Source of the DNA: a virus | Length of the DNA: 64,000 bases | Virus record (IMG/VR): IMGVR_UViG_3300045592_000030 | Strand: one strand, 5' to 3' | Part shown: positions 4,658 through 63,727 of the stretch, piece after piece | How the letters are laid out: each line of letters begins with the position of its first letter | Numbering within the stretch: the stretch's first letter is position 1 | Made by a program: the position numbers and the translations under genes | Notes under the pieces: model-generated | Database searches by the model: none | Told to the model about the DNA's origin: nothing | What the model saw: only the letters and a program-made list of their open reading frames with translations

Positions 4658-6493
4658 TTATTCCTGTGTAGCATCGGCAATGCCGGTCTTGCTGTTGTCA
4701 AGTGTGGTGATAGCCTCTCGCTTGATGACCCAACGGAGGTGCGGGTCCCAGTCGTTGAACTGCGAGGCCACCTGCCAGGGTCTTAGCACCAGCTGCTGGG
4801 TAGGCATCATCTGTAACTGCTTCATCAGATAGCGCGTGCGCATGTCGGTGCCACTGTTCTTTCCCGCCGCGCCGGGGGTGTTGCCGATAAGGGTAGAGTC
4901 CAGTCCCATAGCAAAGAAGATGATGCTTGATATTTCCAACAGTTCGGTCTGCTGTGCATCGGCATTGTTCTTACTGCTGCTTTCTATCTCCACTACCTTG
5001 AAGCTGTCGTGGTCTTTGCCGTCGCTGCCCGAGAAGGTGAAGGCGATAAGGCTCTGTCCGGCATTGGTGCGATGGTTGAGCCAGTTATTGATTTGCGTGA
5101 AAAGCTCATCACGGAGCTGTGGTTTTGTCTTGATGGCTACTTCCTTGCCCTTTGCACGTTTCTGCTGTGCGTAGAGCGTCTGCTCGTTATAAAGCGAGTT
5201 GAGATAATCGTTGTGAATGTAAATCACGCGGCCAATGACATTAGCATTGCGCTTGCGCGTGTATCGGTCAGAGATGATCGTGGCGGCATATTCATAGACA
5301 TCACCCGTGAAGATGCTGTGCCACGGCTGCACGGGATAGTAAGGCCGTCCGCTGGTAGGGTAGGAGCAAGGGAGGATGAAGTGTGTGCGTCGCTGCTCCG
5401 GGCTCTTATCCCTGTCCTCGCGCACATAGCGTTTCATGTCGGCCAGTGGTGTTTGCCAGGTCAGTGCGGGCAAAGCGACGATTTCCTCGTCCTTGATGTT
5501 TTTCAATGTCGTGGGGTCATCATAGAAGCGGTTGGAGAGATACACGTAGTTGATACGTCCGTCGTCGTCCATGCGCTCCAGTCGGCAGAGATGTGCCGGA
5601 CGGTAGCGTATGGCCTGTACCTTCGGCTTCCATACGGGTTCGAGTTTGTGGGTACTATCGTTATAGCTCTGCTGATTGATGTCGAGTTCGGGGAAACATA
5701 TACCGAGCAAGTCAATATCACTGCCCAGTTGCAAGGCGGTCAGTCCGTTGCAGGTGTTGTCGCAAAGCTGCTGTATCTCCGGCGCGTCGAGCTGCCAGCG
5801 TTCCAAATCATTATTATACTGATCTATCTGATTGTCGATGCTGGCAATAAGCGTATCGGTGCTGTTGCCGTTCTGCTCTTCTCTGTTGTCGCCATCGATA
5901 GGAAACATCGCGGCAGAATCGGGATCGTCGGCAACGCCCTGCATTTGCAACTGTACCTTCTCGCGCTGTAAGTCACGGATAAAGCCCTTGAGCAAGACGT
6001 TGGCAAAGGCGTATGGCACATCACCCTCTATCATCGTACCTCCGTTCTGATAGCGCACATAGTGGTACATGGGCTGCGGGCCTTGTCCGGCGAGCAAGTC
6101 GGTATTGAACTTATGTCCTGCCGCGGTATAGGGAAGCATCGACGTGAGCAAGGCCACCACGTTAGGGATTTTGTTCTGTGCACCCCACGTGATATAGCCT
6201 CTGTCCTTTGTCCCCGCGTTGGCCACCAACTGCTCCGAGCCGCTGGTCTGCATCAGCAAGGGGAGCATACGGCGTTGGCCGGTGCCATCGTCCTGTCCGT
6301 TGCTACAACCGAGTTGTGCGTTGATATACTGTCCGTAGTCGCCACCCGGCATATTATTGTCGTCGTGAGTGTAGTGGTTAGGTGCCACGGCATAACCGGC
6401 TTCCAACAGATGCTGCTGCACACGGGCAAACTGACTGGTGCCCTTGGCGGTGATCACGCGCCGGTCGGCTAATGTATTCTTTGTGCGTACCAT
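4658..6493 (-). CDS. Portal protein candidate
   Basis: 611 aa. Size and placement in the packaging/head region with its own late promoter fit a portal. No signature verified by eye. Confidence 0.5.
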   Translation of the reverse strand: MVRTKNTLADRRVITAKGTSQFARVQQHLLEAGYAVAPNHYTHDDNNMPGGDYGQYINAQLGCSNGQDDGTGQRRMLPLLMQTSGSEQLVANAGTKDRGYITWGAQNKIPNVVALLTSMLPYTAAGHKFNTDLLAGQGPQPMYHYVRYQNGGTMIEGDVPYAFANVLLKGFIRDLQREKVQLQMQGVADDPDSAAMFPIDGDNREEQNGNSTDTLIASIDNQIDQYNNDLERWQLDAPEIQQLCDNTCNGLTALQLGSDIDLLGICFPELDINQQSYNDSTHKLEPVWKPKVQAIRYRPAHLCRLERMDDDGRINYVYLSNRFYDDPTTLKNIKDEEIVALPALTWQTPLADMKRYVREDRDKSPEQRRTHFILPCSYPTSGRPYYPVQPWHSIFTGDVYEYAATIISDRYTRKRNANVIGRVIYIHNDYLNSLYNEQTLYAQQKRAKGKEVAIKTKPQLRDELFTQINNWLNHRTNAGQSLIAFTFSGSDGKDHDSFKVVEIESSSKNNADAQQTELLEISSIIFFAMGLDSTLIGNTPGAAGKNSGTDMRTRYLMKQLQMMPTQQLVLRPWQVASQFNDWDPHLRWVIKREAITTLDNSKTGIADATQE

Positions 6494-6515: not shown

Positions 6516-6549
6516 TAAAGATAGTGTTTCGGGATAGGATATTAGGGAC
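6516..6549 (-). promoter_or_regulatory. Late-type promoter TGTCCCTAA-N18-TATCTTTA
   Basis: Minus strand reads GTCCCTAA + 18 nt + TATCTTTA, 22 nt before portal ATG 6493. One of five copies with identical geometry. Confidence 0.6.
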
Positions 6550-6589
6550 ACGAAAAAGCTCATCAGTGCTTTACTTCATACGCACAACC

Positions 6590-6633
6590 GCAATACTCCT
6601 TACTTTCAACTGCAATACTCCTTACTTTCAACT
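6590..6633. repeat. Perfect 22-bp tandem duplication GCAATACTCCTTACTTTCAACT x2
   Basis: Read directly: 6590-6611 equals 6612-6633. Intergenic, just upstream of the portal promoter. Confidence 0.85.
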
Positions 6634-6640
6634 GCTAAAG

Positions 6641-6695
6641 AGAAAGCTCACAACCGCTAAACTTTGTGTATTGCGGTGGTGAGCTTTCTGTTTTT
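6641..6695. terminator. 17-bp-stem hairpin, terminator-like, after the methyltransferase gene
   Basis: AGAAAGCTCACAACCGC (6641-6657) pairs with GCGGTGGTGAGCTTTCT (6673-6689), with one G-T/A-C mismatch. T-run on the + side and CTTTAG on the minus side, so orientation is ambiguous. Confidence 0.5.
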
Positions 6696-6763
6696 CTAAG
6701 AAATTGAAGTTGTTTTTCTAAGAAAAGTTCATCGTTTTTCTTAGAAAAGTAAGTTTCTAAGAA
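6694..6763. repeat. Four phased TTCTAAGAA / TTCTTAGAA palindromic boxes
   Basis: Boxes at 6694, 6716, 6738 and 6755, giving spacings of 22, 22 and 17 bp. Intergenic between the MTase stop and the portal promoter. Confidence 0.75.
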
Positions 6764-7116
6764 ATGGCGAGCGATAATGATTAAACTACAAAGCTAATAG
6801 TGGATTGATATAGCGGTCAGCGAAACGGGATTGAACAAAGATTTTCTCCACACGCTTCACGGGTCTGTCGCTGTTCATAATGTTGCTGATGCCCGTGGCC
6901 GCAATGGGTGTAAAGCCTTCGGGCATGGCATACTCACTTACAAAGACGGGCTGTGGTTTGTCCAGACACCAGCCATAGAAAGCGTCGAAATCAAACGAGG
7001 AAAGATATTTCTTCGTATTCTGATAAGGTGGATCGCAATAGATAACACTATGCGGTGGAACAGCTACATTTCTGTAGTCAGCTTGCGAGACGTGCAAAGA
7101 GACGGAATGGCTGATA

Positions 7117-7123
7117 CCCCCCC
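7117..7123 (-). repeat. Homopolymer G7 (C7 on +) at the MTase frame break
   Basis: Read directly: ctgataCCCCCCCaag. Confidence 0.9.
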
Positions 7124-7125
7124 AA

Positions 7126-7260
7126 GTCTTTCTAAGCTCTGCAACCTTTCAAGGCTTTCTAAGCTCTCCAACCTTTCGAGTCTTTCTAAGCTCTGCAATC
7201 TTTCAAGGCTTTCTAAGCTCTGCAACCTTTCAAGGCTTTCTAAGCTCTGCAAACTTTGTA
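7126..7260 (-). repeat. Five 27-bp tandem units (three 9-bp subunits each) inside the MTase ORF
   Basis: Units start at 7126, 7153, 7180, 7207 and 7234. They are in frame and encode LERLQSLES-type triplets with Leu every third residue. Confidence 0.85.
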
Positions 7261-7932
7261 AAGACTCCAACCGCTGTAAGCGTTCCAGCCGCTCGATATT
7301 CGGGTTGCATTCAAATTCGCGGATGTCGCTTGTAGATTTCTTTTTATCTTTCTTGAAATGACAGGAAGCGTAGAGCGGATTGGTCTGCAACACGCGCTCA
7401 TCGCCATTGCGCTGCAAAGCTTCTACAACGGAGCCTTGAAAACGTATGCGACGGACATGGATATGGTTGTTGGTATCAGGATGACCGCAAAGCGATACTT
7501 TATCCTTAACATAGTCGCATATTTCCGGACAGAGCTGCTCCATCATCTGCCATCGGTCAAAGACGACGGCCTCGTGGCACGCACGCTTGTATGGTTCAAG
7601 CTGTTGGGAATACATATAACTGCGTTGGTCGTTACCAAAAGAAAAGCACAGCCGGGCATACGAATCATGGTCTTTCAGCGAGAAAAAATCCTTGCACGAA
7701 ATCCACCTGCGCTCATTGTGAAACTTACCCCGAATGGCATCTGGGAACACCAGTGCGGAGTCGGTGATGTCGTTGGCGATGACCTGCTTGTATCTGCCCG
7801 ATACCATCGCGGCATGGCTCGCGGCACAGCCACCGGCAAACAAATCAACAAAGGTATCTGCACCCGGCAATGAACTCATCAGCCAACCAATGACACGGTT
7901 CTTACTGCCCTGATAAGGTAATCCGTAATTTT

Positions 7933-8250
7933 TCATGCTGAATAAAATCTTGTGCCATCAACCTCTATCACCAGATAGTCGTTGATGCGTCGTATCTCGC
8001 CACTATTGACAAACTTAATCATGTGCTGGCGCACACGGGGAAAGGCTTTCAGACAGATGCAATAACCTTCCTCCAAAACGCCCTGCTGAGTAACATACTT
8101 GATATGGAACGGCACCTGCTGCTTGTGTCGTGCATCGGCAGGAGCGTTGTAACCTACGGTGTGATGACCCGTCAGCGGATCATCCCATTCCCATTTCTCG
8201 ATATAGTTGCGTAGATACTCGAAACTGACTGTTGGATTATTCTTTGGCAT
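7933..8250 (-). CDS. Hypothetical protein
   Basis: 105-aa ORF between terL and the MTase. Its stop overlaps the MTase start by 4 nt. Confidence 0.55.
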   Translation of the reverse strand: MPKNNPTVSFEYLRNYIEKWEWDDPLTGHHTVGYNAPADARHKQQVPFHIKYVTQQGVLEEGYCICLKAFPRVRQHMIKFVNSGEIRRINDYLVIEVDGTRFYSA

Positions 8251-8261: not shown

Positions 8262-10259
8262 TTAGAAACCGCCCGGCATACAGAGGCCGGTAAGGTTGTT
8301 ACGATAGAAACGACAACCGATGTAAAGGTCATCGAAAGCGTCGGTACCATCGGTACGCAACTCTGCGGGAACAGACGATCCATCCACATTGTCGGTACTC
8401 AGTTTCTCACCCGTCTTGTCTTTCTTGAAAGTGCCCATGACCTGGCGGATGCCGCAATTCTCCATCGCTATCAAGAGACTTTCGTTGTTCTCACGGTTGA
8501 AACGAATGACCGGATAGACATACCCTGCCAATCCCTCGTTGATGTTCTTATACTTCATGTCGTGTTCCATTGCCTGACCCATATAGATAGGGTTGACCGC
8601 CCAGCCATGTTTACGGAGCTCGGCAATCACGGTGTCCTTGATGTCGGCATTACCGCTGATGGAATAGACTTTCATCTTGGCCGTATGGTTGTAATAGTAA
8701 AAGACGTTGTTGTTCTTAGCCTTGTGAGGTGCATAATATTTATCCCACAGAGCGATCAAGTCCTGCAACATCTGACCGTCCTTGACGAACATACTGCTCA
8801 GCACGTTCATGGCCTCTACGCTATCACGGCGATACATCTGCGCCGTTACTATCCAGTTGATTTTCGCGTTGTAGTCAAGGGCAATGTGCAAGGGTAGTCC
8901 GTCGATGCAATCGCCATCCAACAAACAGTCGTTCTTTAAGCCTAAGTAGTGGAAGTTAGGCGTTTCATATTCCTGCTGCTGTAAGGCACCATTATACACC
9001 GTGCTGGCGGTCTTGACACAATAAGCGTTGTCGATGGCCGGGCAATCCTCACAGATATAACCATGCACATTCTCAATGTCAAGGTTGCAATAAAAGCCGT
9101 CGCTCAGTCGCTTGGGCTTTTGGTTAAGCACCGATATTTGGAACACGAGCGGGCTAAGGTCCCGCTTCATGCGTGCAATATATTCCTTGCCGAGAAGGTC
9201 AACGTTGTCAAGCGTGGATCCGCGATAGACGATGAATGCCGCACAACGCAAATCGTTGATGTGGCGTGCGTACTTCTTGCTGCCACGTATAGCCATCATC
9301 TCAAAATGCTGCTCCTGGGTAATGAGGAACTCGTAATCAAAGATAAGGTCGGCATCGTCAGCATCTATCAGATGATAGGAAAGACAATAGTCCACCATGC
9401 CCTTAGTCATGTTGACATATTGCCGCGGCAAAGCCTTGAACGGTCCCTCGTGGCGCATCATGGAAACGGCAATCTGCTGGATGCGGTCTTTCGTCTCCTT
9501 ATCGACTTCGTGAATGCGGTGTTTGCTATCCTCTGCACGGCGCATAAGCTCGTTCCAGAAGTCCACTTTGTCGGCATAGTCAAACAACTCCTGCTGAATA
9601 TCGCGGTAGGTCTTTCCGGCAAACTCACCGGACGGGATTTTCAGGTCGAGTTTCTTTTCCTCCTTTTCAAGCCAGTTGTTTTTATTCGACAAAGATGCAT
9701 CCGACGTGAAACATGTACTCTTGTAGAACGGATTGTTGTTGTTGAAACCATTGATAGGAGACGGGGGGACAATACCCGACAGAGCGGGCATCACTTCCTG
9801 GTTAAGCTTGGTGTAAGGAATGAACTTACACTCATCGATAATCAGCGAGTTCAGGGTCATGGAGTTCACGGATCCGAACACCGCAAGGGAGGCTGAATAC
9901 CATAGCCAGCCGTTAGCCATCCACAACATGTTGTCGTAAGATTTTGGTTTCATCACCGGCTTTGGCACCCATTTTGGCGGAATGCCCCAACCGAAATGCA
10001 CGCCCTCTTTGAAACCATAGAAACTTTCCATAGCAAAGAGCATGGCGGGAATGGTGCGAGCCCACAGCTGCTTGCGCGACGAACCGCAAATGGCACCCAG
10101 ACCGCGGGGCATGGTCTGCGCTACCTGCCATAGACGTGCGCCCTGGAACTGCGACTTTCCCCAACGGCGACCACATATCGCACGCAAATCACGAGCCTGC
10201 GAATAATAGAGCTTTCGCTGGCCACGGTGCATATAGACATCTCTACGCTTCTGTGCCAT
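8262..10259 (-). CDS. terL: Terminase large subunit
   Basis: 665 aa with a Walker A-like CGRRWGKSQ and a Walker B-like SLIIDECKF. Overlaps the upstream ORF by 17 nt. Confidence 0.85.
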   Translation of the reverse strand: MAQKRRDVYMHRGQRKLYYSQARDLRAICGRRWGKSQFQGARLWQVAQTMPRGLGAICGSSRKQLWARTIPAMLFAMESFYGFKEGVHFGWGIPPKWVPKPVMKPKSYDNMLWMANGWLWYSASLAVFGSVNSMTLNSLIIDECKFIPYTKLNQEVMPALSGIVPPSPINGFNNNNPFYKSTCFTSDASLSNKNNWLEKEEKKLDLKIPSGEFAGKTYRDIQQELFDYADKVDFWNELMRRAEDSKHRIHEVDKETKDRIQQIAVSMMRHEGPFKALPRQYVNMTKGMVDYCLSYHLIDADDADLIFDYEFLITQEQHFEMMAIRGSKKYARHINDLRCAAFIVYRGSTLDNVDLLGKEYIARMKRDLSPLVFQISVLNQKPKRLSDGFYCNLDIENVHGYICEDCPAIDNAYCVKTASTVYNGALQQQEYETPNFHYLGLKNDCLLDGDCIDGLPLHIALDYNAKINWIVTAQMYRRDSVEAMNVLSSMFVKDGQMLQDLIALWDKYYAPHKAKNNNVFYYYNHTAKMKVYSISGNADIKDTVIAELRKHGWAVNPIYMGQAMEHDMKYKNINEGLAGYVYPVIRFNRENNESLLIAMENCGIRQVMGTFKKDKTGEKLSTDNVDGSSVPAELRTDGTDAFDDLYIGCRFYRNNLTGLCMPGGF

Positions 10260-11007
10260 TGTCGTTGTCTCCTATGTTTTCATCATCGGGCATGGGCATT
10301 TCCATCTCCTTCTTGTTTTCCTCCTCGTCATCGTCGTCATCAGCGGAAAAGGTGCCGTCCTCCTGTTCTTTCAGTTCCTTCACCTCGGTAGGCGTGAGGC
10401 CGTAATGCCGTTCAAGACTCTTACGATCCTTTTCAGAAAGGTTACTGCGGCTGTTGTCAATGATGCTGACATCACCCGTAACGTTAAGGTTAGGATTGGC
10501 CATACTCTCCTGCGGATTGTCCTTCTCGTTGAAGTTCTGATATATATCCATATAGATTTTTGCTCCCGACGTAACGCTGCGGTCATTACCCATTTTCATG
10601 CCGTGCGACATCAGCCAGTCGGCACTGGCCGTTACCTTGATGCGGTCCATCGCACGCGTGGAAACAGTAAGGGTGTTGACAATATAGTTGAGCGTATACA
10701 CGTCGCTGCTTATCTCGCTCGGCGTGCGTGGCACACCTTCACGGATATTCAGTGCATCGACATATTCCTGTGCCTCACTGTTGCCCTCTTTGGCCTTGTG
10801 AAGAAGCATGGCATATTCGCGTTTCGCCAATCGACGAAGCGTATCAGACGGGTCTATGAAATGGTCTTGAAGCCACTCCCAATATGCCTCGTAAACAATA
10901 CGGGCACGAAAACGCTGTACGGTGGAGAAGTTGATGCGCTGCAAGTCGGCACCCCCGCGGATCCACTGCTCCACACGATGAAGATAGTTGGATGATGGTT
11001 GACTCAT
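10243..11007 (-). CDS. Possible terminase small subunit
   Basis: 254 aa immediately upstream of and overlapping terL, with a strongly acidic C-terminal tail. Positional call only. Confidence 0.4.
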   Translation of the reverse strand: MSQPSSNYLHRVEQWIRGGADLQRINFSTVQRFRARIVYEAYWEWLQDHFIDPSDTLRRLAKREYAMLLHKAKEGNSEAQEYVDALNIREGVPRTPSEISSDVYTLNYIVNTLTVSTRAMDRIKVTASADWLMSHGMKMGNDRSVTSGAKIYMDIYQNFNEKDNPQESMANPNLNVTGDVSIIDNSRSNLSEKDRKSLERHYGLTPTEVKELKEQEDGTFSADDDDDEEENKKEMEMPMPDDENIGDNDNGTEA

Positions 11008-11016: not shown

Positions 11017-12414
11017 TTACTTCTTTTGTTTCTTTGCTGCCTTTTTCTGTTCGTAGGCTTTGTTGTCCTCGATGGTCTTGTCAATAAATGGCTGATAGGC
11101 TTTTGCCTCTTCGTCGCCTATCAGTGCGGCTAACTCCTTTAGATTTTCCTGCATACCGGCAATACGCGTCTTGGTGGGCTGTTTGTCGGTACGGCGAAGA
11201 TACTTGATGATAGCATCGGCTTTTGCTTTTCGCTCAGCTGCTGCCTGGCGACGTGCCACGGCTTCGGGATTATTATCATCAATCCACTGGCGTACACTCA
11301 GCTCAAAAGCGGGGTCGGCCTCCGTTACCTTGCGATGATAAGACTTCAAGAGCGACAAAAGACGGACTTTTCCGTTTTCGTCTATCTTGAAGCGGTCTTT
11401 CATCTCTTTCTGATACTGCTCGTCATAGCGCAAACGAAGCCATACCTTTGCCAGTTCCCTATCTACATGCTCATAGACAGTCTCGTATTGCTTGGTGGCA
11501 TCAGCGGCTTGCTGAGCATAGACAGCCACTTCCTCAGGCTTACCGCCCTGCTGTGCCATCAGCTTTGCTCGCTCGGCGGCAGCGGTGGCGGTGGCACGCA
11601 TATTGCGCACGTTATCGACATCGGCTTGCAATGATGCCGGCAGCAGCCATTTCACCTGATCAAGATGCAAAGAAGAGGATAACGACATAGCATCAAGAGC
11701 GGATGCGCCACCATTTATGGAAACATCAGCATCGTTGCTAACATGCTCGGTAGATTGCTTGTTTACTTCATTCGTTGATGTTCCCTTTTTGTCGTTGGCG
11801 GTATCAGCGGATAGGGTAGGGGCTTTTGTCTGTGTGGGGGATGCCGGCGTGGCAGCATCAAACAAAGATGGTGCAATCTTTGCCTCTTCTGCCTCTCGCT
11901 CGGCTCTTTCGGCTGCAAGTTCATCATTGTTTTTCTCACGCGCCTCTTTGTCGGTGATAATTGTCATGCCCAACAATGCGGCTATCTTCTCTTGTGTCCG
12001 CGTGTCGGCTGACTGCAATTCTTTCTTGCATTGTTCGCGCTGCATGGCTTCCTCCTTGGTAGGACGACCACGGCGTTTCCTGCGCTGCAAGGCTGTGATA
12101 TAGGCATAGGTCTCGCCATTCACGCCCTGCACAGTCATACCCTTGCTGATTTCATCTTTTATCTGCTCGACATAATATCGCAAACGACTTACCCGGCGAC
12201 TGTAATCACCGAGCATTAATGAAGTCTTGGCAAACTTGTAGGCAAACTGAAAAGCGGTAATAAGCTTTAATCCGGTCTCAATATCCTTACGGTCGGATAA
12301 TTCCCATACATCCCCCAATCGCTCCAAACGGGGGAGCGTGTCAGTAGTAAAATTAGAAAAATCCGTTACCCATTTTAATTTTTCATCATCTGTCATATCC
12401 TTGTATAGCTCCAT
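11017..12414 (-). CDS. Hypothetical coiled-coil / low-complexity protein
   Basis: Start moved to ATG 12414 (MELYKDM) because the track start at 12468 lies inside the promoter at 12458-12491. Confidence 0.6.
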   Translation of the reverse strand: MELYKDMTDDEKLKWVTDFSNFTTDTLPRLERLGDVWELSDRKDIETGLKLITAFQFAYKFAKTSLMLGDYSRRVSRLRYYVEQIKDEISKGMTVQGVNGETYAYITALQRRKRRGRPTKEEAMQREQCKKELQSADTRTQEKIAALLGMTIITDKEAREKNNDELAAERAEREAEEAKIAPSLFDAATPASPTQTKAPTLSADTANDKKGTSTNEVNKQSTEHVSNDADVSINGGASALDAMSLSSSLHLDQVKWLLPASLQADVDNVRNMRATATAAAERAKLMAQQGGKPEEVAVYAQQAADATKQYETVYEHVDRELAKVWLRLRYDEQYQKEMKDRFKIDENGKVRLLSLLKSYHRKVTEADPAFELSVRQWIDDNNPEAVARRQAAAERKAKADAIIKYLRRTDKQPTKTRIAGMQENLKELAALIGDEEAKAYQPFIDKTIEDNKAYEQKKAAKKQKK

Positions 12415-12457: not shown

Positions 12458-12491
12458 CAAAGATACAAAACGGGGGAATTGACTAAGGGAC
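12458..12491 (-). promoter_or_regulatory. Late-type promoter AGTCCCTTA-N18-TATCTTTG
   Basis: Minus strand reads GTCCCTTA + 18 nt + TATCTTTG, 43 nt before ATG 12414. Confidence 0.6.
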
Positions 12492-12570
12492 TGAAAGTAA
12501 AGGTATTCTTCCCCTATTCTTAACGCCTTTGCCCATCATCCCGTGCGTCGAATTATAATTCGACAACTAT

Positions 12571-12611
12571 AAACAAAAAAAACCGCACCGAAGAAAAATC
12601 TCCGGTGCGGT
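12571..12611 (-). terminator. Rho-independent terminator after the 196-aa head-region gene
   Basis: Minus strand: ACCGCACCGG stem, loop, CGGTGCGGT stem, followed by TTTTTTTTGTTT. Confidence 0.7.
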
Positions 12612-12708: not shown

Positions 12709-13299
12709 TTAAGCTTTACTTGGGTCTTTTGCTGTCGGTGCTGCTGCCTTTGCGCTTGCGAGCAAGCTGTCCCAACCTTCGGTAGGCTCTTCGACGAACA
12801 GATGCGGATAGACTACTCCGTTGAGCTTTAAGTCCATCTTCATCTGTCGGTCAGAGCTTGCGCTGTCGCCGGTATCGGAGTTGATGCCTCCTGAATCGGC
12901 CTTCACCTTACGCACCTTATCGTAGAGGATCTGCGAGTTACCGTCAGAGTCGGGGATGATGACAAACACATCGTTGTTGTTCACGGCACGCGCAAACTTA
13001 CTGGTGGTTGCATCGACGACCTCGGAAACGACGGTAGCGGTCAAGTTAAAGCCCTTGCGATAGCCGGCGGAATCGCCGACAATCTTCTGCTTCTCATCAG
13101 CGGCCTCGAACTTATACAGTCCCTTACCTGAATTAAAGATAGGGGTGCTGTATGTATTATCGGTACGGGTCAGCGGAGCTGTAAGGTCAGACTTCAAACC
13201 GAAGTAGGCCACAGAGCCCATTCCGGCAAAGTTCTCCATACAACTGTTGGCGTTGGTAACGTCCATCATTGTAGGGCATGTTTCTTTAATTGCTGCCAT
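12709..13299 (-). CDS. Hypothetical head-associated protein (follows capsid gene)
   Basis: 196-aa ORF between the capsid gene and a strong terminator. Positional call only. Confidence 0.6.
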   Translation of the reverse strand: MAAIKETCPTMMDVTNANSCMENFAGMGSVAYFGLKSDLTAPLTRTDNTYSTPIFNSGKGLYKFEAADEKQKIVGDSAGYRKGFNLTATVVSEVVDATTSKFARAVNNNDVFVIIPDSDGNSQILYDKVRKVKADSGGINSDTGDSASSDRQMKMDLKLNGVVYPHLFVEEPTEGWDSLLASAKAAAPTAKDPSKA

Positions 13300-13412
13300 A
13301 ATTATATGTTTTTATTTGTTGTTACTAAGAATATGTTCTCTTATCAAGAAGCAAGATAGAAGAGAGTAGGAAGGCAAATGCCTGTCCTTGCTCTCTTTAT
13401 CTGGGGGCTTGT

Positions 13413-14702
13413 TTACTCCTTAGCGAAGATAGCGGTGATTGCGTCAGGCTGATTCTTCGTGATGTAGGTCAGAGCTGCGTTGGTAGAACCGTTGCTCCAA
13501 CGGACGAACTTATAACCAGTCTCGGCTGTTGCGGTCAGCGTCAGCGTTGTACCTGGAACGTATGCGCCATTGGCATCAGCACTGCCACCTGTAACGACTA
13601 CCTTACCACCCCCGGCAGGAGTGGCGGTAACAGCGAGCGTGTTATCGTGATAGTCGCCGCTAATCAACGATGTAGGAGCAACGACAGCTGCGTCAGTCAT
13701 CGCGAACTTAGAAGGCATGAGCTGCACGATACGCGTACCGATAGTGGTCTGAATCTGGAACTGGATGTCGGTAAGGTCGTCATCGGTGCCCTCCTTGATG
13801 CCAACGTAGTTGTCAACGGGATCGCCGTTGTTGACACCAATCTCAAAGTTATTAGGAACAGTGAACACGATGCGGTCGCCAACGCCCCAGTCCTCAACAG
13901 GAACAACAGTTAGTCGTGGCATCTCGATAAACTTGAAGTTGACAGTATTGCCCTGCATGATGACCTCACGGTTGTTGCGGCGAGCATTGCCGTAAGCATC
14001 AGAGATAGCAACAGATGTGTCAACATTCATGTAAGCAAAGGTTTCCTGACGTTTCAGGGCATCAGGCAGAGCGTTGTAAGCTGCGCGGAAATTCTTCCAT
14101 GCGGCTGTATCGCTGTCGTCCTTCGGCGCATCGAGCACATCGCAATGGATAAGGTTTTTATTCTCCTTAGAGATAAGGCCGTTCTCAACCTCGTGTGCTA
14201 TAACGGTCTGGAAACCGTCAAAGAGGCCAAGAGCTTTCTTGTCATCCTCATTAGCGTCGGCGTTGTCCTTATCACCCCACCACAGGTTAGACATACAGTC
14301 GTCAGAGAAGGCTGTTGCAATCTGGGTCAGTGCTAACTCAGAAAGCGGATAGCTGACAGTAGCATCGCCATTGACATTAGCAACAGGCAGCTCGCGATAG
14401 TTACCCTTATTGTCTGTGTAATGGTTCCAAACGGTGTAAGTAACCAGCGGACGCTCCTGTAAAAAGCCCATCTGCGAGTTAATCTTATCACCGGCATTCT
14501 TGCGACGTGTGGTGCCACCCTTACGATAGAACACATATTTTGTGTTCATGAGCTGAATGCCGGTAAGAACGTTGATGCCTAAGCGGGCAATCTCATCCTT
14601 GGCATAGTAAGCAGGACCCATAAGGATGTTTTGCTCAATCTGATTGGCCAAAGTCTTTAAGGTCTGAATTCCGATAAACGGAACAGTGTTAATTGTATTC
14701 AT
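13413..14702 (-). CDS. Major capsid protein candidate with C-terminal Ig/InlB-B-repeat-like extension
   Basis: 429 aa directly after the protease-scaffold gene. The C-terminal segment TLTLTATAETGYKFVRWSNGS resembles the Listeria-Bacteroides repeat (from memory). Confidence 0.6.
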   Translation of the reverse strand: MNTINTVPFIGIQTLKTLANQIEQNILMGPAYYAKDEIARLGINVLTGIQLMNTKYVFYRKGGTTRRKNAGDKINSQMGFLQERPLVTYTVWNHYTDNKGNYRELPVANVNGDATVSYPLSELALTQIATAFSDDCMSNLWWGDKDNADANEDDKKALGLFDGFQTVIAHEVENGLISKENKNLIHCDVLDAPKDDSDTAAWKNFRAAYNALPDALKRQETFAYMNVDTSVAISDAYGNARRNNREVIMQGNTVNFKFIEMPRLTVVPVEDWGVGDRIVFTVPNNFEIGVNNGDPVDNYVGIKEGTDDDLTDIQFQIQTTIGTRIVQLMPSKFAMTDAAVVAPTSLISGDYHDNTLAVTATPAGGGKVVVTGGSADANGAYVPGTTLTLTATAETGYKFVRWSNGSTNAALTYITKNQPDAITAIFAKE

Positions 14703-14748
14703 AGTGCTATGAGTTTATATGAATTAATATCTGATGATTTGTCGTTGA

Positions 14749-16440: not shown

Positions 16441-16620
16441 AATAGATATATTGTTTATTTCGATTTTGATTTCTACACCAAAAGTAAACAATACATTTTT
16501 CGTCAGGACGCAAAAATTAGGGGGAAAACCTTTGTTTTCGGGAAAGAGCAAAAAAAAAGTGAAAACAAAAAATCCGCATATCCTCACGGACAGCGGATCA
16601 ACCATTGAATTTATGAAATA

Positions 16621-16655
16621 CAAAAAAATCAGCAAATGAAAGCGCATCCCTGCGC
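16621..16655 (-). terminator. Rho-independent terminator after the 160-aa gene
   Basis: Minus strand: GCGCAGGGATGCGC hairpin followed by TTTCATTTGCTGATTTTTTTG. Confidence 0.6.
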
Positions 16656-16764
16656 CATCATTTGCAATGCCTATAGATATGAATGAAACAATCTATTTTC
16701 TAACATACAAAACATTTCCGACATTTTTAACCTTTTCAATATACAATCTTACTATTCAATCTTA

Positions 16765-17247
16765 CTATTCAATACTAACAATCCTTGACCTTGACTGCAT
16801 CACCAGTTCCACGTTCATGGTGTGCGTTAGGTCTGCATAGCTCTCTGATACAGCAAACGAACAGGTGTTTGGCAGTGGGACGAGTGCTTTCTGCTCGCCA
16901 TTGCGTATTGTCAATAAGACCAAAACGTCCATATTTTCGACGTTATCTGCCTTTTCGCGCACCGTATCGAAGCCACCTGTAACAACACACTGCAAAGTGT
17001 GCTGGTGAATACGTCCATAGACAGCATCCTTATCCTCCGTAGCCAGCGATGGTGAAGTGTCCATATCGCCGTCGCCGGTACCATCCATTGCTAACGACAA
17101 TACCGACGCGCCCAACGTAATATTCGATTTCTCCATGATCACAAGCTTAGGCACCAAATAAAGAATACCCTTACAAGCTTCAAGAGGAATGAAATCAACC
17201 TTGACCACATCATCTAATATCTGTTCCAAACAACTGTTATCTGCCAT
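16765..17247 (-). CDS. Hypothetical protein
   Basis: 160-aa ORF followed by a terminator. No motif recognised. Confidence 0.6.
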   Translation of the reverse strand: MADNSCLEQILDDVVKVDFIPLEACKGILYLVPKLVIMEKSNITLGASVLSLAMDGTGDGDMDTSPSLATEDKDAVYGRIHQHTLQCVVTGGFDTVREKADNVENMDVLVLLTIRNGEQKALVPLPNTCSFAVSESYADLTHTMNVELVMQSRSRIVSIE

Positions 17248-17376: not shown

Positions 17377-18141
17377 TTATACTTCTGTTTTTACCTTTTC
17401 GTCTTTCATTCCGTTGCTGATTTGCTCAGCCTCTTTTGCAGTGATATGCTCGAAGAATCGGTCAGAAAAATCTATGCGGTCGTTAGGCAAAATATTCGCG
17501 CGGTCAAGCCATCGGTTTGTCATCCGTCGCAACGACTCGCGTTCTTTCTTGTCTGCTGACACGGGAATACCATACACCATGAAGAAGCGTTCCAACGTCT
17601 CCAGCCGTGGCCGGTCTATGCCACGTTGGTTACAGAAACGACGGTCTTGTATCATCCAGTCGAGCAAACACAAGACAAATTCATGTCTGAGCATTCCTTC
17701 CAGTCTGGTAACACTGCTGCGGTCGAGCGAATAGCTGTTGTTGACGCGGATAAAACGTCCACCATCGCAAATCTCCTTTGGTGTGGCAATACAAAGATAG
17801 TCATAACATTCGTTGAGGAAGTTACCACTTTCCTTTGCCATTGTGCTTATTTCCTGCGCCGACGGCCATTCCTTTGCGTCCCGTTTGATGATTTTGTCCT
17901 TACCGTCGGGCGTGCGGCCACGAAGCATATTCTTCCATGCCATCTGCGAATAGCAATGATTGCGTGCCATGTCGCTCTCGCTCATCACGCGCAAGCCCAT
18001 CGACAACACGACATATTCCTGCGAGAAAGCACAGAACTGCAATGGCTGCTCCGGCGATAAGGGATGATCCGTATCGCGGTTGCGGTAGAACGCGCAAATG
18101 TACTGCGGCAATCTAAGATAGATGTTAGCCATAATCAGCAC
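17377..18141 (-). CDS. Hypothetical protein
   Basis: 254-aa ORF. No motif recognised. Confidence 0.6.
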   Translation of the reverse strand: MLIMANIYLRLPQYICAFYRNRDTDHPLSPEQPLQFCAFSQEYVVLSMGLRVMSESDMARNHCYSQMAWKNMLRGRTPDGKDKIIKRDAKEWPSAQEISTMAKESGNFLNECYDYLCIATPKEICDGGRFIRVNNSYSLDRSSVTRLEGMLRHEFVLCLLDWMIQDRRFCNQRGIDRPRLETLERFFMVYGIPVSADKKERESLRRMTNRWLDRANILPNDRIDFSDRFFEHITAKEAEQISNGMKDEKVKTEV

Positions 18142-18443
18142 TCCTCCTCGTGAAAGACTATCGGCCCCTGCACCTTGTCAGTGTCCGTATCGTTGTCGGG
18201 TTTATCCTCCTTTGTAAACTCTAAACGAAATACACTCAGCACAAAGAACAGCCAATTGAATGTTATGCCATAAACATAACGAAGTCCTGGCTTACCAATG
18301 GATTTTTCTTCGTGTGCCAATATAGGCATACAATTACGGTATATATATAGCGAAGGAATAACAAAGAAAGTGGCGAATGATCGACGCTGTGCTTTATTAC
18401 ACCAATAACAACGATCCAAAATCTTGAATTTTATCTTCTTCAT
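18135..18443 (-). CDS. Small membrane protein
   Basis: 102 aa with two hydrophobic segments (FATFFVIPSLYIY, WLFFVLSVF). Confidence 0.5.
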   Translation of the reverse strand: MKKIKFKILDRCYWCNKAQRRSFATFFVIPSLYIYRNCMPILAHEEKSIGKPGLRYVYGITFNWLFFVLSVFRLEFTKEDKPDNDTDTDKVQGPIVFHEEEC

Positions 18444-18454
18444 ATAATTAAAGG

Positions 18455-18691
18455 TTATATTGCCTGACTGATGTCCTTACCCACATGCCAACATCCACAA
18501 ATGGAACAGCGGTAAATAGTATATCCATCGTGCTTGAGCCACCAGTGGCGGCATAGCCAGTGTTTGGCCTTGTGCTCCGTAGAGAATGGCTGTTTGGGTT
18601 TCCATCGTCCTTGTTTCTTACTGTAATGCTCACGTGGCTGCTTACCTTTCGGATGCATCCGCCGGTCGTGGTAGGGTGTATAATCTTTCAT
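18455..18691 (-). CDS. Small Cys/His-rich (zinc-ribbon-like) protein
   Basis: 78 aa containing CRHWW...CSICGCWH. Confidence 0.5.
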   Translation of the reverse strand: MKDYTPYHDRRMHPKGKQPREHYSKKQGRWKPKQPFSTEHKAKHWLCRHWWLKHDGYTIYRCSICGCWHVGKDISQAI

Positions 18692-18750
18692 ACGCTGCCG
18701 GGATTGTTCCTTACCCTAAAGATAGAACAAAATGCTAACAGTAAAAGACG

Positions 18751-19437
18751 TTATTTCTTCCCTTTCTCACGTTTTGCGGCATCTGCTTTTTTACGCAACT
18801 GCGCACTCTTAGCAATGAATGTTTTCATGCGCTTGTCAAAGTAGTTTTCCATGCTGTCTGCATAGTCAGCAAAGAGAGCCTGCTGCTCTTCGGAGCCCGT
18901 ACTGCGCGTATGGCGGAAAGCGGAGGAAAGCTGATGCAAGGCAGTAGCCACACCCTCAAACTGCGTGAAGTCGTATTCTTCCTGCGGAAAGAGCTCTTTC
19001 AGTTCCTGTTGAATGTCTATCAACTTACTTTCGACAATATCAGAGAGGAAAGTAACCATATTGAGATGGTAGCTGCACAGCTGCTTCACATTCTGCTTGT
19101 GTTCATCGTCAGCCGGTATCTTCTTCCACAAGTCGTTAATCTTGATGTCCTGCTTTTCGGTGTGGTGCAAGGTTTTTCGTTGCATGGCGGTCAGGATCAT
19201 CATGGCAATGCGCTGGTCGTCTTGCTCCACTCCTTTACGAATGGCAAGAGGATTAGAACCGGGCCGCTCGGCCACCTTGAACATCTTGTTTCGATGCTCT
19301 ACAAGTCGCTCGAATTTCTCATCATGGAACACCAGTTCCAGTACGGACATGTATTCCGACGTGCGGCACACATCAAGCTCCATCGGCATGGTGAACGATG
19401 GCAGCTTTTCATAATTGATATATTCCTTCTGTTTCAT
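18751..19437 (-). CDS. Hypothetical protein
   Basis: 228-aa ORF. No motif recognised. Confidence 0.6.
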   Translation of the reverse strand: MKQKEYINYEKLPSFTMPMELDVCRTSEYMSVLELVFHDEKFERLVEHRNKMFKVAERPGSNPLAIRKGVEQDDQRIAMMILTAMQRKTLHHTEKQDIKINDLWKKIPADDEHKQNVKQLCSYHLNMVTFLSDIVESKLIDIQQELKELFPQEEYDFTQFEGVATALHQLSSAFRHTRSTGSEEQQALFADYADSMENYFDKRMKTFIAKSAQLRKKADAAKREKGKK

Positions 19438-20026: not shown

Positions 20027-20032
20027 AATTAT

Positions 20033-41525: not shown

Positions 41526-41559
41526 TAAAAATACGAAATACAAAGAGGCCGTTAGGGAC
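41526..41559 (-). promoter_or_regulatory. Late-type promoter TGTCCCTAA-N18-TATTTTTA
   Basis: Minus strand reads GTCCCTAA + 18 nt + TATTTTTA, 26 nt before tape-measure ATG 41499. Confidence 0.55.
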
Positions 41560-41686
41560 AATACCCAACGAAACAGCCCCGCCATTATCACAACGACGGG
41601 GCCGTAAAGACAGAAAAAAACACATCCTTTCTGTTTACTGATCGTAAACCTAAAAAAATACTATGATAAAAAAAGAGTTCCTGAAG

Positions 41687-43404: not shown

Positions 43405-43438
43405 CAAAGATAGAATATAGACTAACAGATATAGGGAC
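43405..43438 (-). promoter_or_regulatory. Late-type promoter TGTCCCTAT-N18-TATCTTTG
   Basis: Minus strand reads GTCCCTAT + 18 nt + TATCTTTG, 24 nt before ATG 43380. The leader also carries GTTATAG..CAAAACAT. Confidence 0.6.
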
Positions 43439-43624
43439 AGCTTCGACTATTCAAAAGAAAATTGCGGAGCACAGATTTTATAGGTGTTTTTAGTAATCAT
43501 AACATTGTTTATTTTTCTATGAAAAACGAGTAAGAAAAACAAAATAAAATTCTAAGAAAAGTACGAAGCTTATAATAAGAGAGCACAATGCTCAGATATT
43601 GCGAGCTCCGTACTTTTCACTGCG

Positions 43625-53050: not shown

Positions 53051-53368
53051 ATGAGTAAAAAGAAAGACGAGGATAAAGCCCCTAAGTTAATGGATTTCGT
53101 TGCAGTACAAAAGGTGGATGCCTTTTGTCGGCAATATCAGCCGGTCAGCAAACAGGACTACAATACAGAAGTCTATAATGAGATACGGCTCCGCAACTTC
53201 TTCAAGGCGGATGTTTGCCCTTGCGGTGATCCGCTTACCATATATCTGTCTTTATTAGAGAAAGAAGGATTTGAAATGTCAGTCAGCTTACAGGACGAGC
53301 CTGTATTGCTCGTTAAAGAAAGATATGACCCATCCTCATGGCATCCGTCCTACCGCGACTGCGACTAA
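53051..53368 (+). CDS. Hypothetical small protein
   Basis: Start taken at ATG 53051 (MSKKKDEDK), downstream of a TACTTTTG -7 box at 53009-53016. Confidence 0.45.
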   Translation: MSKKKDEDKAPKLMDFVAVQKVDAFCRQYQPVSKQDYNTEVYNEIRLRNFFKADVCPCGDPLTIYLSLLEKEGFEMSVSLQDEPVLLVKERYDPSSWHPSYRDCD

Positions 53369-54006
53369 AGTTTCCTGATATATCGCTGCCATAGCTTGCA
53401 AACGAGGCACACAATGACCACAACGACAAAGAAAACAATTTCAATCATACCTATCCACCAAAAAAAATCATGCTTCTGCCTTTGTTTCTGCATTACTTTG
53501 CTCGCTGATATGGAGTCGGTCTTTGCCAGGATGCTATCAATATTCAAAGCTGCTACCGATACTTGACTGTCGTTTCGTTGCTGTTGATTGGCCGATGAGT
53601 GATTTTTCTGCGTGCTGTTAACTGCAAATCTGTCTTTCTTGTGCGTGCTGGTCTTATCTATCGTGCGCTTTATAATCTTACCGTTGCCATCAAGTTCTGT
53701 TACTTCATGGATATAGACACTATCCTGATCATGTATACTATCACGCAACTGCTCCCCTACCCTATTGCTGTCAGCACTGGCAACAACAACAGCCACATTG
53801 CCACTGTCCTTCACTGATACGGATTGCTTTGTCTGCTGCTGTAAGACATTCACGCTGCGCGTATTCTCCACCATCTTGCTACTCTTGCAACTTACAAACA
53901 AAGGAACTAACAAAACAAGTAAACAAGCAATGTTGTTTACTTTAATATTTGCAAACCTACTTGCAACCTTGCTCGCAAGGTAAATAAAAACATTATTAGC
54001 TTTCAT
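53365..54006 (-). CDS. Envelope protein with N-terminal lipoprotein-type signal and C-terminal TM anchor
   Basis: N-terminus ...IACLLVLLVPLFVSC-KSS and C-terminus FFWWIGMIEIVFFVVVVIVCLVC. Driven by a late-type promoter. Confidence 0.6.
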   Translation of the reverse strand: MKANNVFIYLASKVASRFANIKVNNIACLLVLLVPLFVSCKSSKMVENTRSVNVLQQQTKQSVSVKDSGNVAVVVASADSNRVGEQLRDSIHDQDSVYIHEVTELDGNGKIIKRTIDKTSTHKKDRFAVNSTQKNHSSANQQQRNDSQVSVAALNIDSILAKTDSISASKVMQKQRQKHDFFWWIGMIEIVFFVVVVIVCLVCKLWQRYIRKL

Positions 54007-54038: not shown

Positions 54039-54072
54039 CAAAGATAAGAATGAAGAAAGATAACTTAGGGAC
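54039..54072 (-). promoter_or_regulatory. Late-type promoter TGTCCCTAA-N18-TATCTTTG
   Basis: Minus strand reads GTCCCTAA + 18 nt + TATCTTTG, 32 nt before ATG 54006. Confidence 0.6.
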
Positions 54073-54104
54073 AAACTTTCACACAAGCAAGCATAATATC
54101 AATA

Positions 54105-63696: not shown

Positions 63697-63727
63697 CAAA
63701 GGTACAAAGAATATTTTATATAACAAA
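63697..63727 (-). promoter_or_regulatory. Host-type promoter TTTG-N19-TACCTTTG (early operon)
   Basis: Minus strand match to the Bacteroides -33/-7 consensus. Confidence 0.55.

What the first reader, a model, noticed from the sequence alone, without database searches (positions are those of the whole stretch)
6516..6549. Five-copy late-promoter family TGTCCCTAA-N18-TATCTTTG replacing the host -33 element
On the minus strand the same 34-bp architecture occurs five times:
- 6549..6516 (portal operon): GTCCCTAA-N18-TATCTTTA.
- 12491..12458 (packaging operon): GTCCCTTA-N18-TATCTTTG.
- 41559..41526 (tape measure): GTCCCTAA-N18-TATTTTTA.
- 43438..43405 (tail operon): GTCCCTAT-N18-TATCTTTG.
- 54072..54039 (envelope protein 53365..54006): GTCCCTAA-N18-TATCTTTG.

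The spacer is exactly 18 nt in all five copies, and each lies 22-43 nt upstream of an ATG. The downstream box matches the Bacteroides -7 consensus TAnnTTTG, but GTCCCTAA sits where the -33 TTTG should be.

The early and replication genes instead use canonical TTTG-N18-20-TAnnTTTG promoters at 31045, 50934, 52947, 60903, 60972 and 63697. This looks like a temporal promoter class read either by a phage-encoded activator or sigma-appropriating factor, or by an alternative sigma. I could not identify that factor. I found no further copies by eye. The protease-scaffold gene has a related CCCCCTAA box, but with 30-nt spacing.
Basis: partly seen in the sequence, partly recalled or inferred. Interest (0 to 1): 0.65.

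Follow-up and report, generated by a model that had tools for sequence, protein, structure and literature searches.

The report
Late-gene promoter class of Prevotella phages
An uncultured 83.5-kb phage of Prevotella-type gut and wastewater bacteria starts its virion, packaging and lysis operons from promoters that keep the host's normal -7 box but replace the host's -33 box with a phage-specific TGTCC box at a rigid distance. This marks a separately controlled late gene class whose reader protein is still unknown.

Summary
GTCCCTWW-N18-TATYTTTR occurs five times, all on the minus strand and all intergenic, 22-43 nt before an ATG; shuffles give none.

- **Family-wide element:** the conserved core is TGTCC, exactly 22 nt upstream of TAnnTTTG. 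In 115 related loci (2.09 Mb) it occurs 204 times on the gene strand and 4 times on the other. Spacings of N20, N21 and N23 occur 4, 1 and 2 times. The spacer sequence is not conserved.
- **Copies outside the window:** the same 83.5-kb genome has two more, one before the holin gene and one before a 648-aa tail gene.
- **Regulon:** in relatives the first gene downstream is nearly always portal, tail, protease-scaffold or packaging. Early and replication genes use canonical TTTG-N19/20-TAnnTTTG promoters.
- **Reader not found:** no sigma, MotA, AsiA or Ogr homologue appears in about 97% of the genome.

Best reading: host sigma-A reads the -7 box, and a phage-encoded factor reads TGTCC in place of sigma region 4. 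No transcription start or timing data exist. This is a new variant of a known kind.

The parts
6516..6550 (-). Late promoter 1: TGTCCCTAA-N18-TATCTTTA, 22 nt before the ATG of the portal gene (4658-6493).
   Evidence: matrix score 26.1. An orthologous promoter stands before the portal gene in relatives at 77%, 60% and 48% protein identity, with different spacers. The portal is the commonest first gene behind such promoters in the family, 70 of 228.
12458..12492 (-). Late promoter 2: AGTCCCTTA-N18-TATCTTTG, 43 nt before the ATG of the 465-aa first gene of the packaging operon (11017-12414, then 10243-11007, large terminase 8262-10259, 7933-8250, methyltransferase 7064-7936).
   Evidence: score 15.9. 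An orthologous promoter occurs in L001, L003 and L006. The large terminase is identified by PHROG 2. A strong terminator about 90 nt upstream separates it from the head operon.
41526..41560 (-). Late promoter 3: TGTCCCTAA-N18-TATTTTTA, 26 nt before the ATG of the 1877-aa tape measure gene (35866-41499).
   Evidence: score 24.8. The tape measure is identified by PHROGs.
43405..43439 (-). Late promoter 4: TGTCCCTAT-N18-TATCTTTG, 24 nt before the ATG of a three-gene tail-region operon (42799-43380, 42229-42795, 41687-42208).
   Evidence: score 19.7. Homologues of these genes carry TGTCC promoters in relatives, including divergent promoter pairs in L121, L167, L187 and L198.
54039..54073 (-). Late promoter 5: TGTCCCTAA-N18-TATCTTTG, 32 nt before the ATG of a 213-aa lipoprotein with a C-terminal membrane anchor (53365-54006). 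It is embedded in the replication and partition region.
   Evidence: score 31.6, the best in the window. The same arrangement next to Rep and ParA homologues is seen in L168 and L183.
63697..63727 (-). Canonical host-type promoter TTTG-N19-TACCTTTG of an early operon. It stands as the example of the contrasting class; the others are at 60903, 52947, 50934 and 31045 on the minus strand and 60972-61002 on the plus strand.
12582..12611 (-). Intrinsic-terminator-like hairpin (13-bp stem followed by T8) that ends the head operon just upstream of late promoter 2.
17377..19437 (-). Candidate reader genes only, by inference. This is a conserved module of two genes of unknown function (18751-19437, 228 aa; 17377-18132, 251 aa) at the 3' end of the operon driven by a canonical promoter. 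In this window two small genes (18135-18443 and 18455-18691) lie between them; in relatives the two are adjacent.
   Evidence: Homologues are adjacent in relatives, and the first TGTCC promoter follows 600-700 nt after them. The 251-aa protein folds confidently (pLDDT 85.6) but matches no solved or viral predicted structure. There is no direct evidence of DNA or RNA polymerase binding.

Best explanation
**What it is.** These are the late promoters of an uncultured, roughly 83.5-kb phage of Prevotella or other Bacteroidales. The phage resembles a phage-plasmid: it carries a Rep3-like initiator with iterons and a ParA gene.

**Anatomy.** Each promoter keeps the host sigma-A '-7' element TAnnTTTG. 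It lacks the '-33' TTTG and instead has an asymmetric box, W-TGTCC-(C/G/T). In this genome the box reads TGTCCCTAA. The T of TGTCC lies exactly 27 nt upstream of the T of the -7 box.

**Proposed mechanism.**
1. Host RNA polymerase with sigma-A recognises the -7 box through sigma region 2.
2. Without a -33 element these promoters are poor on their own.
3. A factor made from the canonical (early or middle) promoters, most probably phage-encoded, binds TGTCC at the -33 position. It replaces or remodels the contact normally made by sigma region 4. This could be class-II activation or T4 MotA/AsiA-style sigma appropriation.
4. That switches on the portal, packaging, tape-measure, tail and lysis operons together.

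**Shown here.** The motif, its rigid geometry, its conservation across a large phage family, its restriction to morphogenesis and lysis operons, and the co-evolving base next to the core.

**Inferred.** That transcription starts there, that it is late, and the identity and mode of action of the factor.
For: - **Motif in the window:** five exact copies in the window against none in shuffles. Two more lie in the rest of the same genome, before the holin gene and before a 648-aa tail gene.
- **Family-wide count:** in 115 portal-anchored related loci (2.09 Mb), TGTCC-N22-TAnnTTTG occurs 204 times on the gene strand and 4 times on the other strand. N20, N21 and N23 occur 4, 1 and 2 times. The reversed cores GGACA and CCTGT give nothing.
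- **Chance and position:** first-order Markov simulations give 1-6 matches in total. Of 224 sites, 217 are followed within 200 nt by an ORF of at least 50 codons, at a median of 35 nt.
- **Footprint:** there are 224 distinct promoter sequences. Spacer columns carry about 0-0.3 bits, while columns not fixed by the search pattern, -23 (C in 206 of 224) and -28 (A or T), are conserved.
- **Orthologous positions:** sites before the portal and packaging genes are kept at 77%, 60% and 48% protein identity although the spacers differ.
- **Regulon:** first downstream genes are portal 70, 648-aa tail protein 33, protease-scaffold 16, plus other virion and packaging genes; 54 have no match to a reference gene, and 4 are a GNAT-like gene. 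Tape measure, terminase and holin are identified.
- **Contrasting class:** early, replication and partition genes use TTTG-N19/20-TAnnTTTG.
- **Host:** related contigs come from Prevotella, Prevotellaceae and Bacteroidales assemblies. Their sigma-A uses TAnnTTTG and TTTG (PMC7366714, read).
- **Co-evolving base:** the base after TGTCC is 72% identical within a genome and 27% identical between genomes. Spacer columns show no such difference.
Against: - **No direct transcription data:** there is no evidence for start sites or timing. The runs that hold the phage show flat, DNA-like coverage.
- **No candidate factor by homology:** no sigma, MotA, AsiA, Ogr or Mor family hit was found in Pfam or PHROGs. 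My Pfam scans covered nearly all window genes and most genes of the flank that carries the lysis and first early genes. For the other flank (the tail genes) I relied on Pfam hits precomputed by the source. Together this covers about 97% of the genome.
- **Best positional candidate uninformative:** the 251-aa protein (17377-18132) has an orphan fold.
- **Head operon:** in this genome the head operon (protease-scaffold, capsid) has no such promoter, so 'all late genes' is too strong here.
- **-33 may be dispensable:** the -33 element is weak in some Bacteroidota. It was not recovered in Flavobacterium johnsoniae according to PMC7366714. The -7 box alone might therefore give activity without any factor.
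Confidence: 0.55

Rival explanations
1. The promoters are read by an alternative sigma factor, phage-encoded and too divergent to detect, or a host one. Its region 2 recognises a TAnnTTTG-like -10 and its region 4 recognises TGTCC.
For: - The two-box architecture has very rigid spacing.
- The box is asymmetric.
- The base next to the core is genome-specific.
- Phage sigmas such as T4 gp55 are known to escape sequence searches (established knowledge).
- The genome contains many conserved proteins of unknown function, including an all-helical 228-aa one.
Against: - The -7 box of the late class is indistinguishable from that of the canonical promoters in the same genome (TATCTTTG or TACCTTTG). 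This points to the host sigma-A region 2.
- No Sigma70_r2 or Sigma70_r4 hit was found in about 97% of the genome.
- Known phage sigmas use their own -10 sequences.
Confidence: 0.2
2. TGTCC is an operator for a phage repressor, for example one of the two Cro/CI-type proteins at 51065-51835 and 61048-61419. The repressor keeps constitutive -33-less promoters silent while the phage is carried as a plasmid. This would resemble the asymmetric, genome-specific repressor sites (stoperators) of cluster A mycobacteriophages.
For: - The site is asymmetric, oriented, multi-copy and genome-specific.
- The phage has ParA, a Rep3-like initiator with iterons, and two helix-turn-helix genes divergent from early operons.
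- A site over the -33 position would block polymerase.
Against: - The early promoters, which a maintenance repressor would have to silence first, carry no TGTCC box.
- Occlusion does not require single-base precision, yet about 97% of sites have exactly N22.
- No copies occur away from a -7 box or inside operons, unlike stoperators.
Confidence: 0.1
3. A host protein, such as a global regulator or sigma-A itself with an alternative upstream contact, reads TGTCC. The phage merely exploits an existing host promoter type.
For: - No phage factor could be found.
- The core TGTCC is conserved across phages whose portal proteins are only about 30-40% identical.
Against: - The variable base after the core is uniform within each phage genome and differs between phages assigned to the same host group.
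- Papers on Bacteroides promoter maps describe only the canonical motif and a different, near-palindromic -10/-30 motif.
- TTTG embedded in tTTTGTCC would be 25 nt from the -7 box, 5-6 nt too far for region 4.
- Host genomes themselves could not be scanned here.
Confidence: 0.1

Closest known systems
Phage T4 middle promoters read by sigma appropriation (MotA activator plus AsiA co-activator with E. coli sigma-70)
   Same: - The host-type downstream element (-10 there, -7 here) is retained.
- The upstream sigma region 4 element is replaced by a phage-specific asymmetric box at a fixed position.
- The class is separate from early promoters that use the full host consensus.
   Different: - No MotA or AsiA homologue was found.
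- The host sigma is the Bacteroidota sigma-A, with its own -33/-7 grammar.
- The genes controlled here are late (virion and lysis), not middle.
- The mechanism is inferred, not shown.
Canonical Bacteroidota sigma-A promoter (TTTG at -33, TAnnTTTG at -7)
   Same: The -7 box is identical and is followed by an A-rich leader without a Shine-Dalgarno sequence. The same genome uses this type for its early genes.
   Different: The -33 TTTG is absent. TGTCC sits about 3 nt further upstream, with no tolerance in spacing (N22 only). Canonical promoters in this genome show N19-N20.
Late-gene activators of temperate phages (P2 Ogr / P4 Delta, Mu C and Mor)
   Same: A small set of late operons is switched on together through a short upstream DNA element that substitutes for a poor -35.
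   Different: - Those sites are dyad-symmetric and lie further upstream (around -55 for Ogr, -30 to -55 for Mu C).
- Here the site is a 5-9 nt asymmetric box at the -33 position.
- No Ogr_Delta or Mor-type domain was found.
Cluster A mycobacteriophage repressor sites (stoperators)
   Same: Asymmetric, oriented, multi-copy sites whose sequence is specific to each genome and co-evolves with a phage protein.
   Different: Stoperators are scattered within operons and act on elongation. Every copy here is locked to a -7 box at N22, and none occurs at early promoters.

Membership tests
Bacteroidota sigma-A promoter | -7 element TAnnTTTG | tested here: met
   Three of the five copies match fully (TATCTTTG). 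Two end in A (TATCTTTA, TATTTTTA). Family-wide, G occupies the last position in 200 of 224 sequences.
Bacteroidota sigma-A promoter | -33 element TTTG about 19 nt upstream of the -7 box | tested here: not met
   No TTTG occurs at N18-20 in the five copies. In the late regions of relatives, TTTG-N19 and N20 are rare (7 and 14) against 204 TGTCC-N22.
Bacteroidota sigma-A promoter | Transcription start a few nt downstream of the -7 box | not testable with these tools
   No true RNA data were available. The runs that hold the phage are total-nucleic-acid libraries with flat coverage.
T4-type sigma appropriation (MotA/AsiA) | Host downstream element kept, and the upstream element replaced by an activator box at a fixed position | tested here: met
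T4-type sigma appropriation (MotA/AsiA) | MotA-like DNA-binding activator encoded by the phage | tested here: not met
   No Pfam or PHROGs hit in about 97% of the genome. Homology could be beyond detection.
T4-type sigma appropriation (MotA/AsiA) | AsiA-like protein that binds sigma region 4 | tested here: not met
   Same searches. Binding itself is not testable here.
Phage-encoded sigma factor promoters (T4 gp55, SPO1 gp28 and gp33-34) | A sigma-70-family gene in the phage genome | tested here: not met
   No Sigma70_r2, r3 or r4 hits (precomputed Pfam).
Phage-encoded sigma factor promoters (T4 gp55, SPO1 gp28 and gp33-34) | A -10-type element different from the host's | tested here: not met
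   The late -7 boxes equal the canonical ones of the same genome.
Ogr/Delta or Mu C/Mor late activation | Dyad-symmetric activator site upstream of -30 | tested here: not met
   No conservation upstream of -31 and no second half-site.
Mycobacteriophage stoperators | Copies inside operons and at the early lytic promoter | tested here: not met
   All copies lie at N22 from a -7 box in intergenic gaps, and none occurs at canonical promoters.

The most novel reading that the evidence does not exclude
A large, entirely uncultured family of Prevotella/Bacteroidales phages carries a sigma-appropriation system unrelated in sequence to T4 MotA/AsiA. In this reading one or two orphan-fold proteins re-target the Bacteroidota sigma-A holoenzyme from TTTG to TGTCC at the -33 position. 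The conserved pair at 18751-19437 and 17377-18132 would be the candidates; they sit immediately before the first late promoter in relatives. The DNA specificity would drift genome by genome, which would make late promoters private to each phage lineage.
Probability: 0.3. Interest if true: 0.75.

Novelty: new variant of a known kind. Interest (0 to 1): 0.6.

Why it matters
**Gap in knowledge.** Temporal control of transcription is essentially undescribed for Bacteroidota phages other than the crAss-like ones, which bring their own polymerase. My literature searches found no account of this motif.

**What it offers.**
- It is a sharply defined, family-wide late promoter: TGTCC-N22-TAnnTTTG, with more than 200 independent examples.
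- It gives a ready annotation mark for late operons in hundreds of gut, rumen and wastewater phage genomes.
- It gives a clean bait for finding the protein that reads it.
- It offers potential orthogonal, phage-inducible promoter parts for Prevotella and Bacteroides genetics.

Tried and rejected
- **Nucleotide similarity to known phages:** no nucleotide match in the phage collection. Translated searches found only 22-25% identity to portal proteins of Polaribacter and Microcystis phages and to a protein on a Fulvitalea plasmid. No annotated relative was available to borrow from.
- **Relatives by terminase peptides in IMG/VR:** none found. The portal alignment worked instead.
- **RNA evidence:** all 'RNA' runs holding the phage are wastewater total-nucleic-acid libraries kept as contigs. 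Depth was flat across promoters and no molecule ends were reported. I abandoned this line.
- **Factor hunt:** Pfam and PHROGs on essentially all window genes, partly as concatenated queries, and on genes outside the window gave no transcription factor apart from two Cro/CI-type helix-turn-helix proteins.
- **The 251-aa conserved protein (17377-18132):** the AlphaFold2 model is good (pLDDT 85.6). Foldseek against the PDB and against viral models gave no match at E <= 0.001, and sequence and profile searches of the PDB found nothing meaningful (one sequence hit at E = 0.9).
- **The 228-aa partner (18751-19437):** only 6 homologues were found. The model is poor (pLDDT 51), so I did not fold-search it.
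- **Exact-pattern scan of IMG/VR for TTGTCCC-N21-TATCTTTG:** About two thirds of the matches look like true promoters in the same phage family; the rest look like chance matches in coding DNA. It therefore gives no clean census.
- **Rejected readings:**
  - E. coli-type sigma-70 promoters show no enrichment.
  - The near-palindromic second promoter motif (PM2) of Bacteroides thetaiotaomicron has different boxes.
  - A TTTG embedded in tTTTGTCC does not work as a shifted -33, because its spacing of 25 is too long.

Full report
**1. Observation**

The pattern GTCCCTWW-N18-TATYTTTR matches five times in the window. All matches are on the minus strand at the coordinates given, and 100 dinucleotide-preserving shuffles gave none. 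The octamer alone occurs only eight times, and five of those are these sites.

All five sit in intergenic gaps. They lie 22-43 nt upstream of an ATG, with A-rich leaders that lack a Shine-Dalgarno sequence. Relaxed patterns and a matrix built from relatives find no sixth site in the window. The five score 15.9-31.6; the next hit scores 13.5 and lies inside a gene.

**2. What the window is**

Nearly all genes are on the minus strand. The following were identified:

| Coordinates | Gene |
|---|---|
| 4658-6493 | portal (remote match to the Polaribacter phage Leef_1 portal) |
| 8262-10259 | large terminase |
| 14749-16647 | S49-type protease-scaffold |
| 35866-41499 | tape measure protein |
| 43816-44967 | beta clamp |
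| 49191-49955 | exonuclease |
| 45661-49164 | DUF5906-type primase-helicase |
| 54105-55412 | Rep3-like initiator |
| 56408-57226 | ParA |
| 28681-29565, 28281-28661 | ThyX and MazG |
| 51065-51835, 61048-61419 | two Cro/CI-type helix-turn-helix genes on the plus strand (the second by a Pfam HTH_3 hit, the first read from its sequence only) |

The same phage assembles as contigs of 83,530 and 83,716 bp. The window plus two flanking loci cover about 97% of it.

There is no close relative among deposited phages or plasmids. The portal nevertheless has more than 600 homologues in metagenomes, on contigs of up to about 107 kb. Related contigs in genome assemblies are labelled Prevotella, Prevotellaceae, Bacteroidaceae or Bacteroidales. 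One is a 90-kb contig of the isolate Prevotella sp. MGM1. The phage itself is found in wastewater and bioreactor sludge.

**3. The motif is a conserved, position-locked promoter element**

*Orthologous sites.* In relatives whose portal is 77%, 60% and 48% identical, the same box-spacer-box stands before the orthologous portal and packaging genes. The spacer sequences differ.

*De novo core.* A count of 5-mers upstream of every TAnnTTTG on the gene strand of 115 portal-anchored loci shows the true core. TGTCC occurs at offset -27 in 204 of 776 boxes.

*Spacing.* The spacing is strikingly rigid. N22 occurs 204 times on the gene strand and 4 times on the other strand. N20, N21 and N23 occur 4, 1 and 2 times. 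The control cores GGACA and CCTGT give nothing.

*Chance and position.* Markov simulations of the same loci give 1-6 matches in total. Of 224 sites, 217 are followed by an ORF, at a median of 35 nt.

*Footprint.* Among 224 distinct sequences the spacer carries almost no information. Two positions not fixed by the search are conserved: C at -23 in 206 of 224, and A or T at -28.

*Variants.* Some clades use TGTTCC, TGTCAC or TGTCTA, or N23.

**4. Which genes it controls**

Within this genome there are seven copies:

| Copy | Location | Downstream gene or operon |
|---|---|---|
| 1 | window 6516-6550 | portal operon |
| 2 | window 12458-12492 | packaging operon |
| 3 | window 41526-41560 | tape measure |
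| 4 | window 43405-43439 | three-gene tail-region operon |
| 5 | window 54039-54073 | lipoprotein with a C-terminal anchor |
| 6 | L225:2808 (outside the window) | holin gene (Phage_holin_4_1, E = 1.3e-8) |
| 7 | L228:9007 (outside the window) | 648-aa tail-module gene |

Across the family, the first gene behind such a promoter is the portal (70), the 648-aa protein (33), the protease-scaffold (16), or other virion and packaging genes. Of the 228 promoters, 54 have a first gene that matches no reference gene. The only non-structural match is a GNAT-like gene, in 4 cases.

Early, replication and partition operons of the same genome start at canonical promoters. A strong terminator at 12582-12611 separates the head operon from the packaging promoter. 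The functional split fits a late class, but timing was not measured.

**5. Geometry**

In canonical promoters of this genome, TTTG ends 19-20 nt before TAnnTTTG. TGTCC ends 22 nt before it. The genome-specific extension TGTCCCTAA covers positions -27 to -19, which is exactly where TTTG would be. A TTTG formed by upstream T's (tTTTGTCC in many relatives) would be 25 nt away, too far to act as a -33. The box therefore replaces the -33 element rather than adding to it.

**6. A co-evolving reader**

The base after TGTCC (position -22) is 72% identical between different promoters of one genome and 27% identical between genomes. Spacer columns show no such contrast. Whole genomes use TGTCCCT, TGTCCGC, TGTCCTT or TGTCACG throughout.

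Promoters of different operons are not orthologous, so this homogeneity is best explained by a trans-acting reader whose specificity drifts with the genome. That favours a phage-encoded protein over a host one. Host-specific factors cannot be excluded, because host chromosomes could not be scanned.

**7.

Pfam and PHROGs scans of the window genes, and of genes outside the window, found no sigma-70 domains and no MotA, AsiA, Ogr/Delta or Mor families.

A positional lead is a conserved pair of unknown genes, 18751-19437 and 17377-18132. In relatives they are adjacent at the end of the nucleotide-metabolism operon, which has no TGTCC promoter. The first late promoter follows 600-700 nt later.

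The 251-aa protein gives a confident model (pLDDT 85.6) but matches nothing in the PDB or in viral predicted structures, and nothing by sequence profile. The 228-aa protein could not be modelled reliably. These are candidates by position only.

**8. Mechanism and rivals**

| Reading | Probability | Main argument |
|---|---|---|
| Host sigma-A holoenzyme reads the unchanged -7 box; a phage factor supplies the upstream contact at TGTCC (class-II activation or MotA/AsiA-like appropriation) | about 0.55 | -7 box same as the host's; rigid spacing; co-evolving base |
| Divergent alternative sigma | 0.2 | Would explain the rigid two-box spacing, but not why the -7 box equals the host's |
| Repressor operator | 0.1 | Fits the plasmid-like lifestyle and the asymmetric, genome-specific site. 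Fits poorly with the single-base spacing precision and with the absence of the box from early promoters |
| Host regulator | 0.1 | No phage factor found, but the box varies between phages of the same host group |

**9. Comparison with what is known, and novelty**

The logic matches T4 middle promoters: host -10 kept, -35 replaced by an activator box. None of the defining proteins is present, however, and the host promoter grammar differs. The held literature describes the canonical Bacteroides promoter and a different second motif (PMC7366714). Searches for this motif or for late promoters of Prevotella or Bacteroides phages found nothing.

I rate it a new variant of a known kind. The cis element is solid and family-wide; the trans factor and the timing remain to be shown.

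Noticed in passing
window 31435-33262 (+): An IS607-type unit, a serine recombinase (Resolvase domain) plus TnpB (OrfB_IS605 and Cas12f-like TNB domains). It is inserted on the opposite strand between the tape-measure region and the nucleotide-metabolism operon. TnpB has 90-94% identical copies in three otherwise unrelated loci.
   Followed up: partly
window 55427-55517 and 55705-55789: Two clusters of about four 22-bp iterons in opposite orientation, just upstream of the Rep3-like initiator gene (54105-55412). ParA lies at 56408-57226. Together they look like a plasmid-type origin and partition set, so the phage may be carried as a phage-plasmid.
   Followed up: partly
window 56296-63809 (-), seven sites such as 59374-59393 and 63639-63658: A GC-rich hairpin with a TTATAG loop region, followed by (C)GCAAAAAT, recurs 10-15 nt before the ATG of early genes. 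TTATAG-N7-CAAAAAT occurs 7 times against 0.14 expected. It could be an RNA processing, stability or translation element of the early operons.
   Followed up: partly
window 6585-6754 and 7122-7261: 22-bp tandem repeats lie in the 570-nt gap upstream of the portal promoter. A 27-bp x5 repeat forms the 3' end of the D12-class methyltransferase gene and encodes ERLQSLESL-type repeats. One wastewater sample differs by a 22-nt deletion at 6721.
   Followed up: no
window 20000-26000: A block of about 33% G+C, against about 48% elsewhere, packed with small ORFs of 50-240 aa, including a GNAT acetyltransferase (23253-23594). It looks like an acquired accessory region inside the long operon driven by a canonical promoter.
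   Followed up: no
window 45011-45592 (-): A 193-aa protein with no family match ends in DDDDLPF, and its homologues in relatives end in DLPF. This is the signature tail of single-stranded-DNA-binding proteins, so it is probably a non-canonical SSB. It sits between the primase-helicase and the clamp.
   Followed up: partly
window 53365-54006 (-): The gene behind late promoter 5 encodes a protein with an N-terminal lipoprotein signal (LFVSC) and a C-terminal transmembrane helix. This is the layout of a unimolecular spanin, although the gene lies far from the holin cassette.
   Followed up: no
window 12709-17247 (-): In this genome the head operon (160-aa gene, protease-scaffold, 429-aa protein with a Flg_new_2 domain, 196-aa gene) has no TGTCC promoter. 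In 16 related promoters the protease-scaffold gene is the first gene downstream. Only a -33-less TATTTTTG at 17314 precedes the operon here.
   Followed up: partly
window 17377-18132 (-): A 251-aa protein conserved across the family (61 homologues, no Pfam domain) gives a confident AlphaFold2 model (pLDDT 85.6, pTM 0.75). The model has no match in the PDB or in viral predicted structures, so the fold is an orphan.
   Followed up: yes
window 63863-64000: A 60-bp GC-rich tandem repeat (2.3 copies, 87% matches) runs into the end of the window, upstream of the first early operon seen in the window.
   Followed up: no
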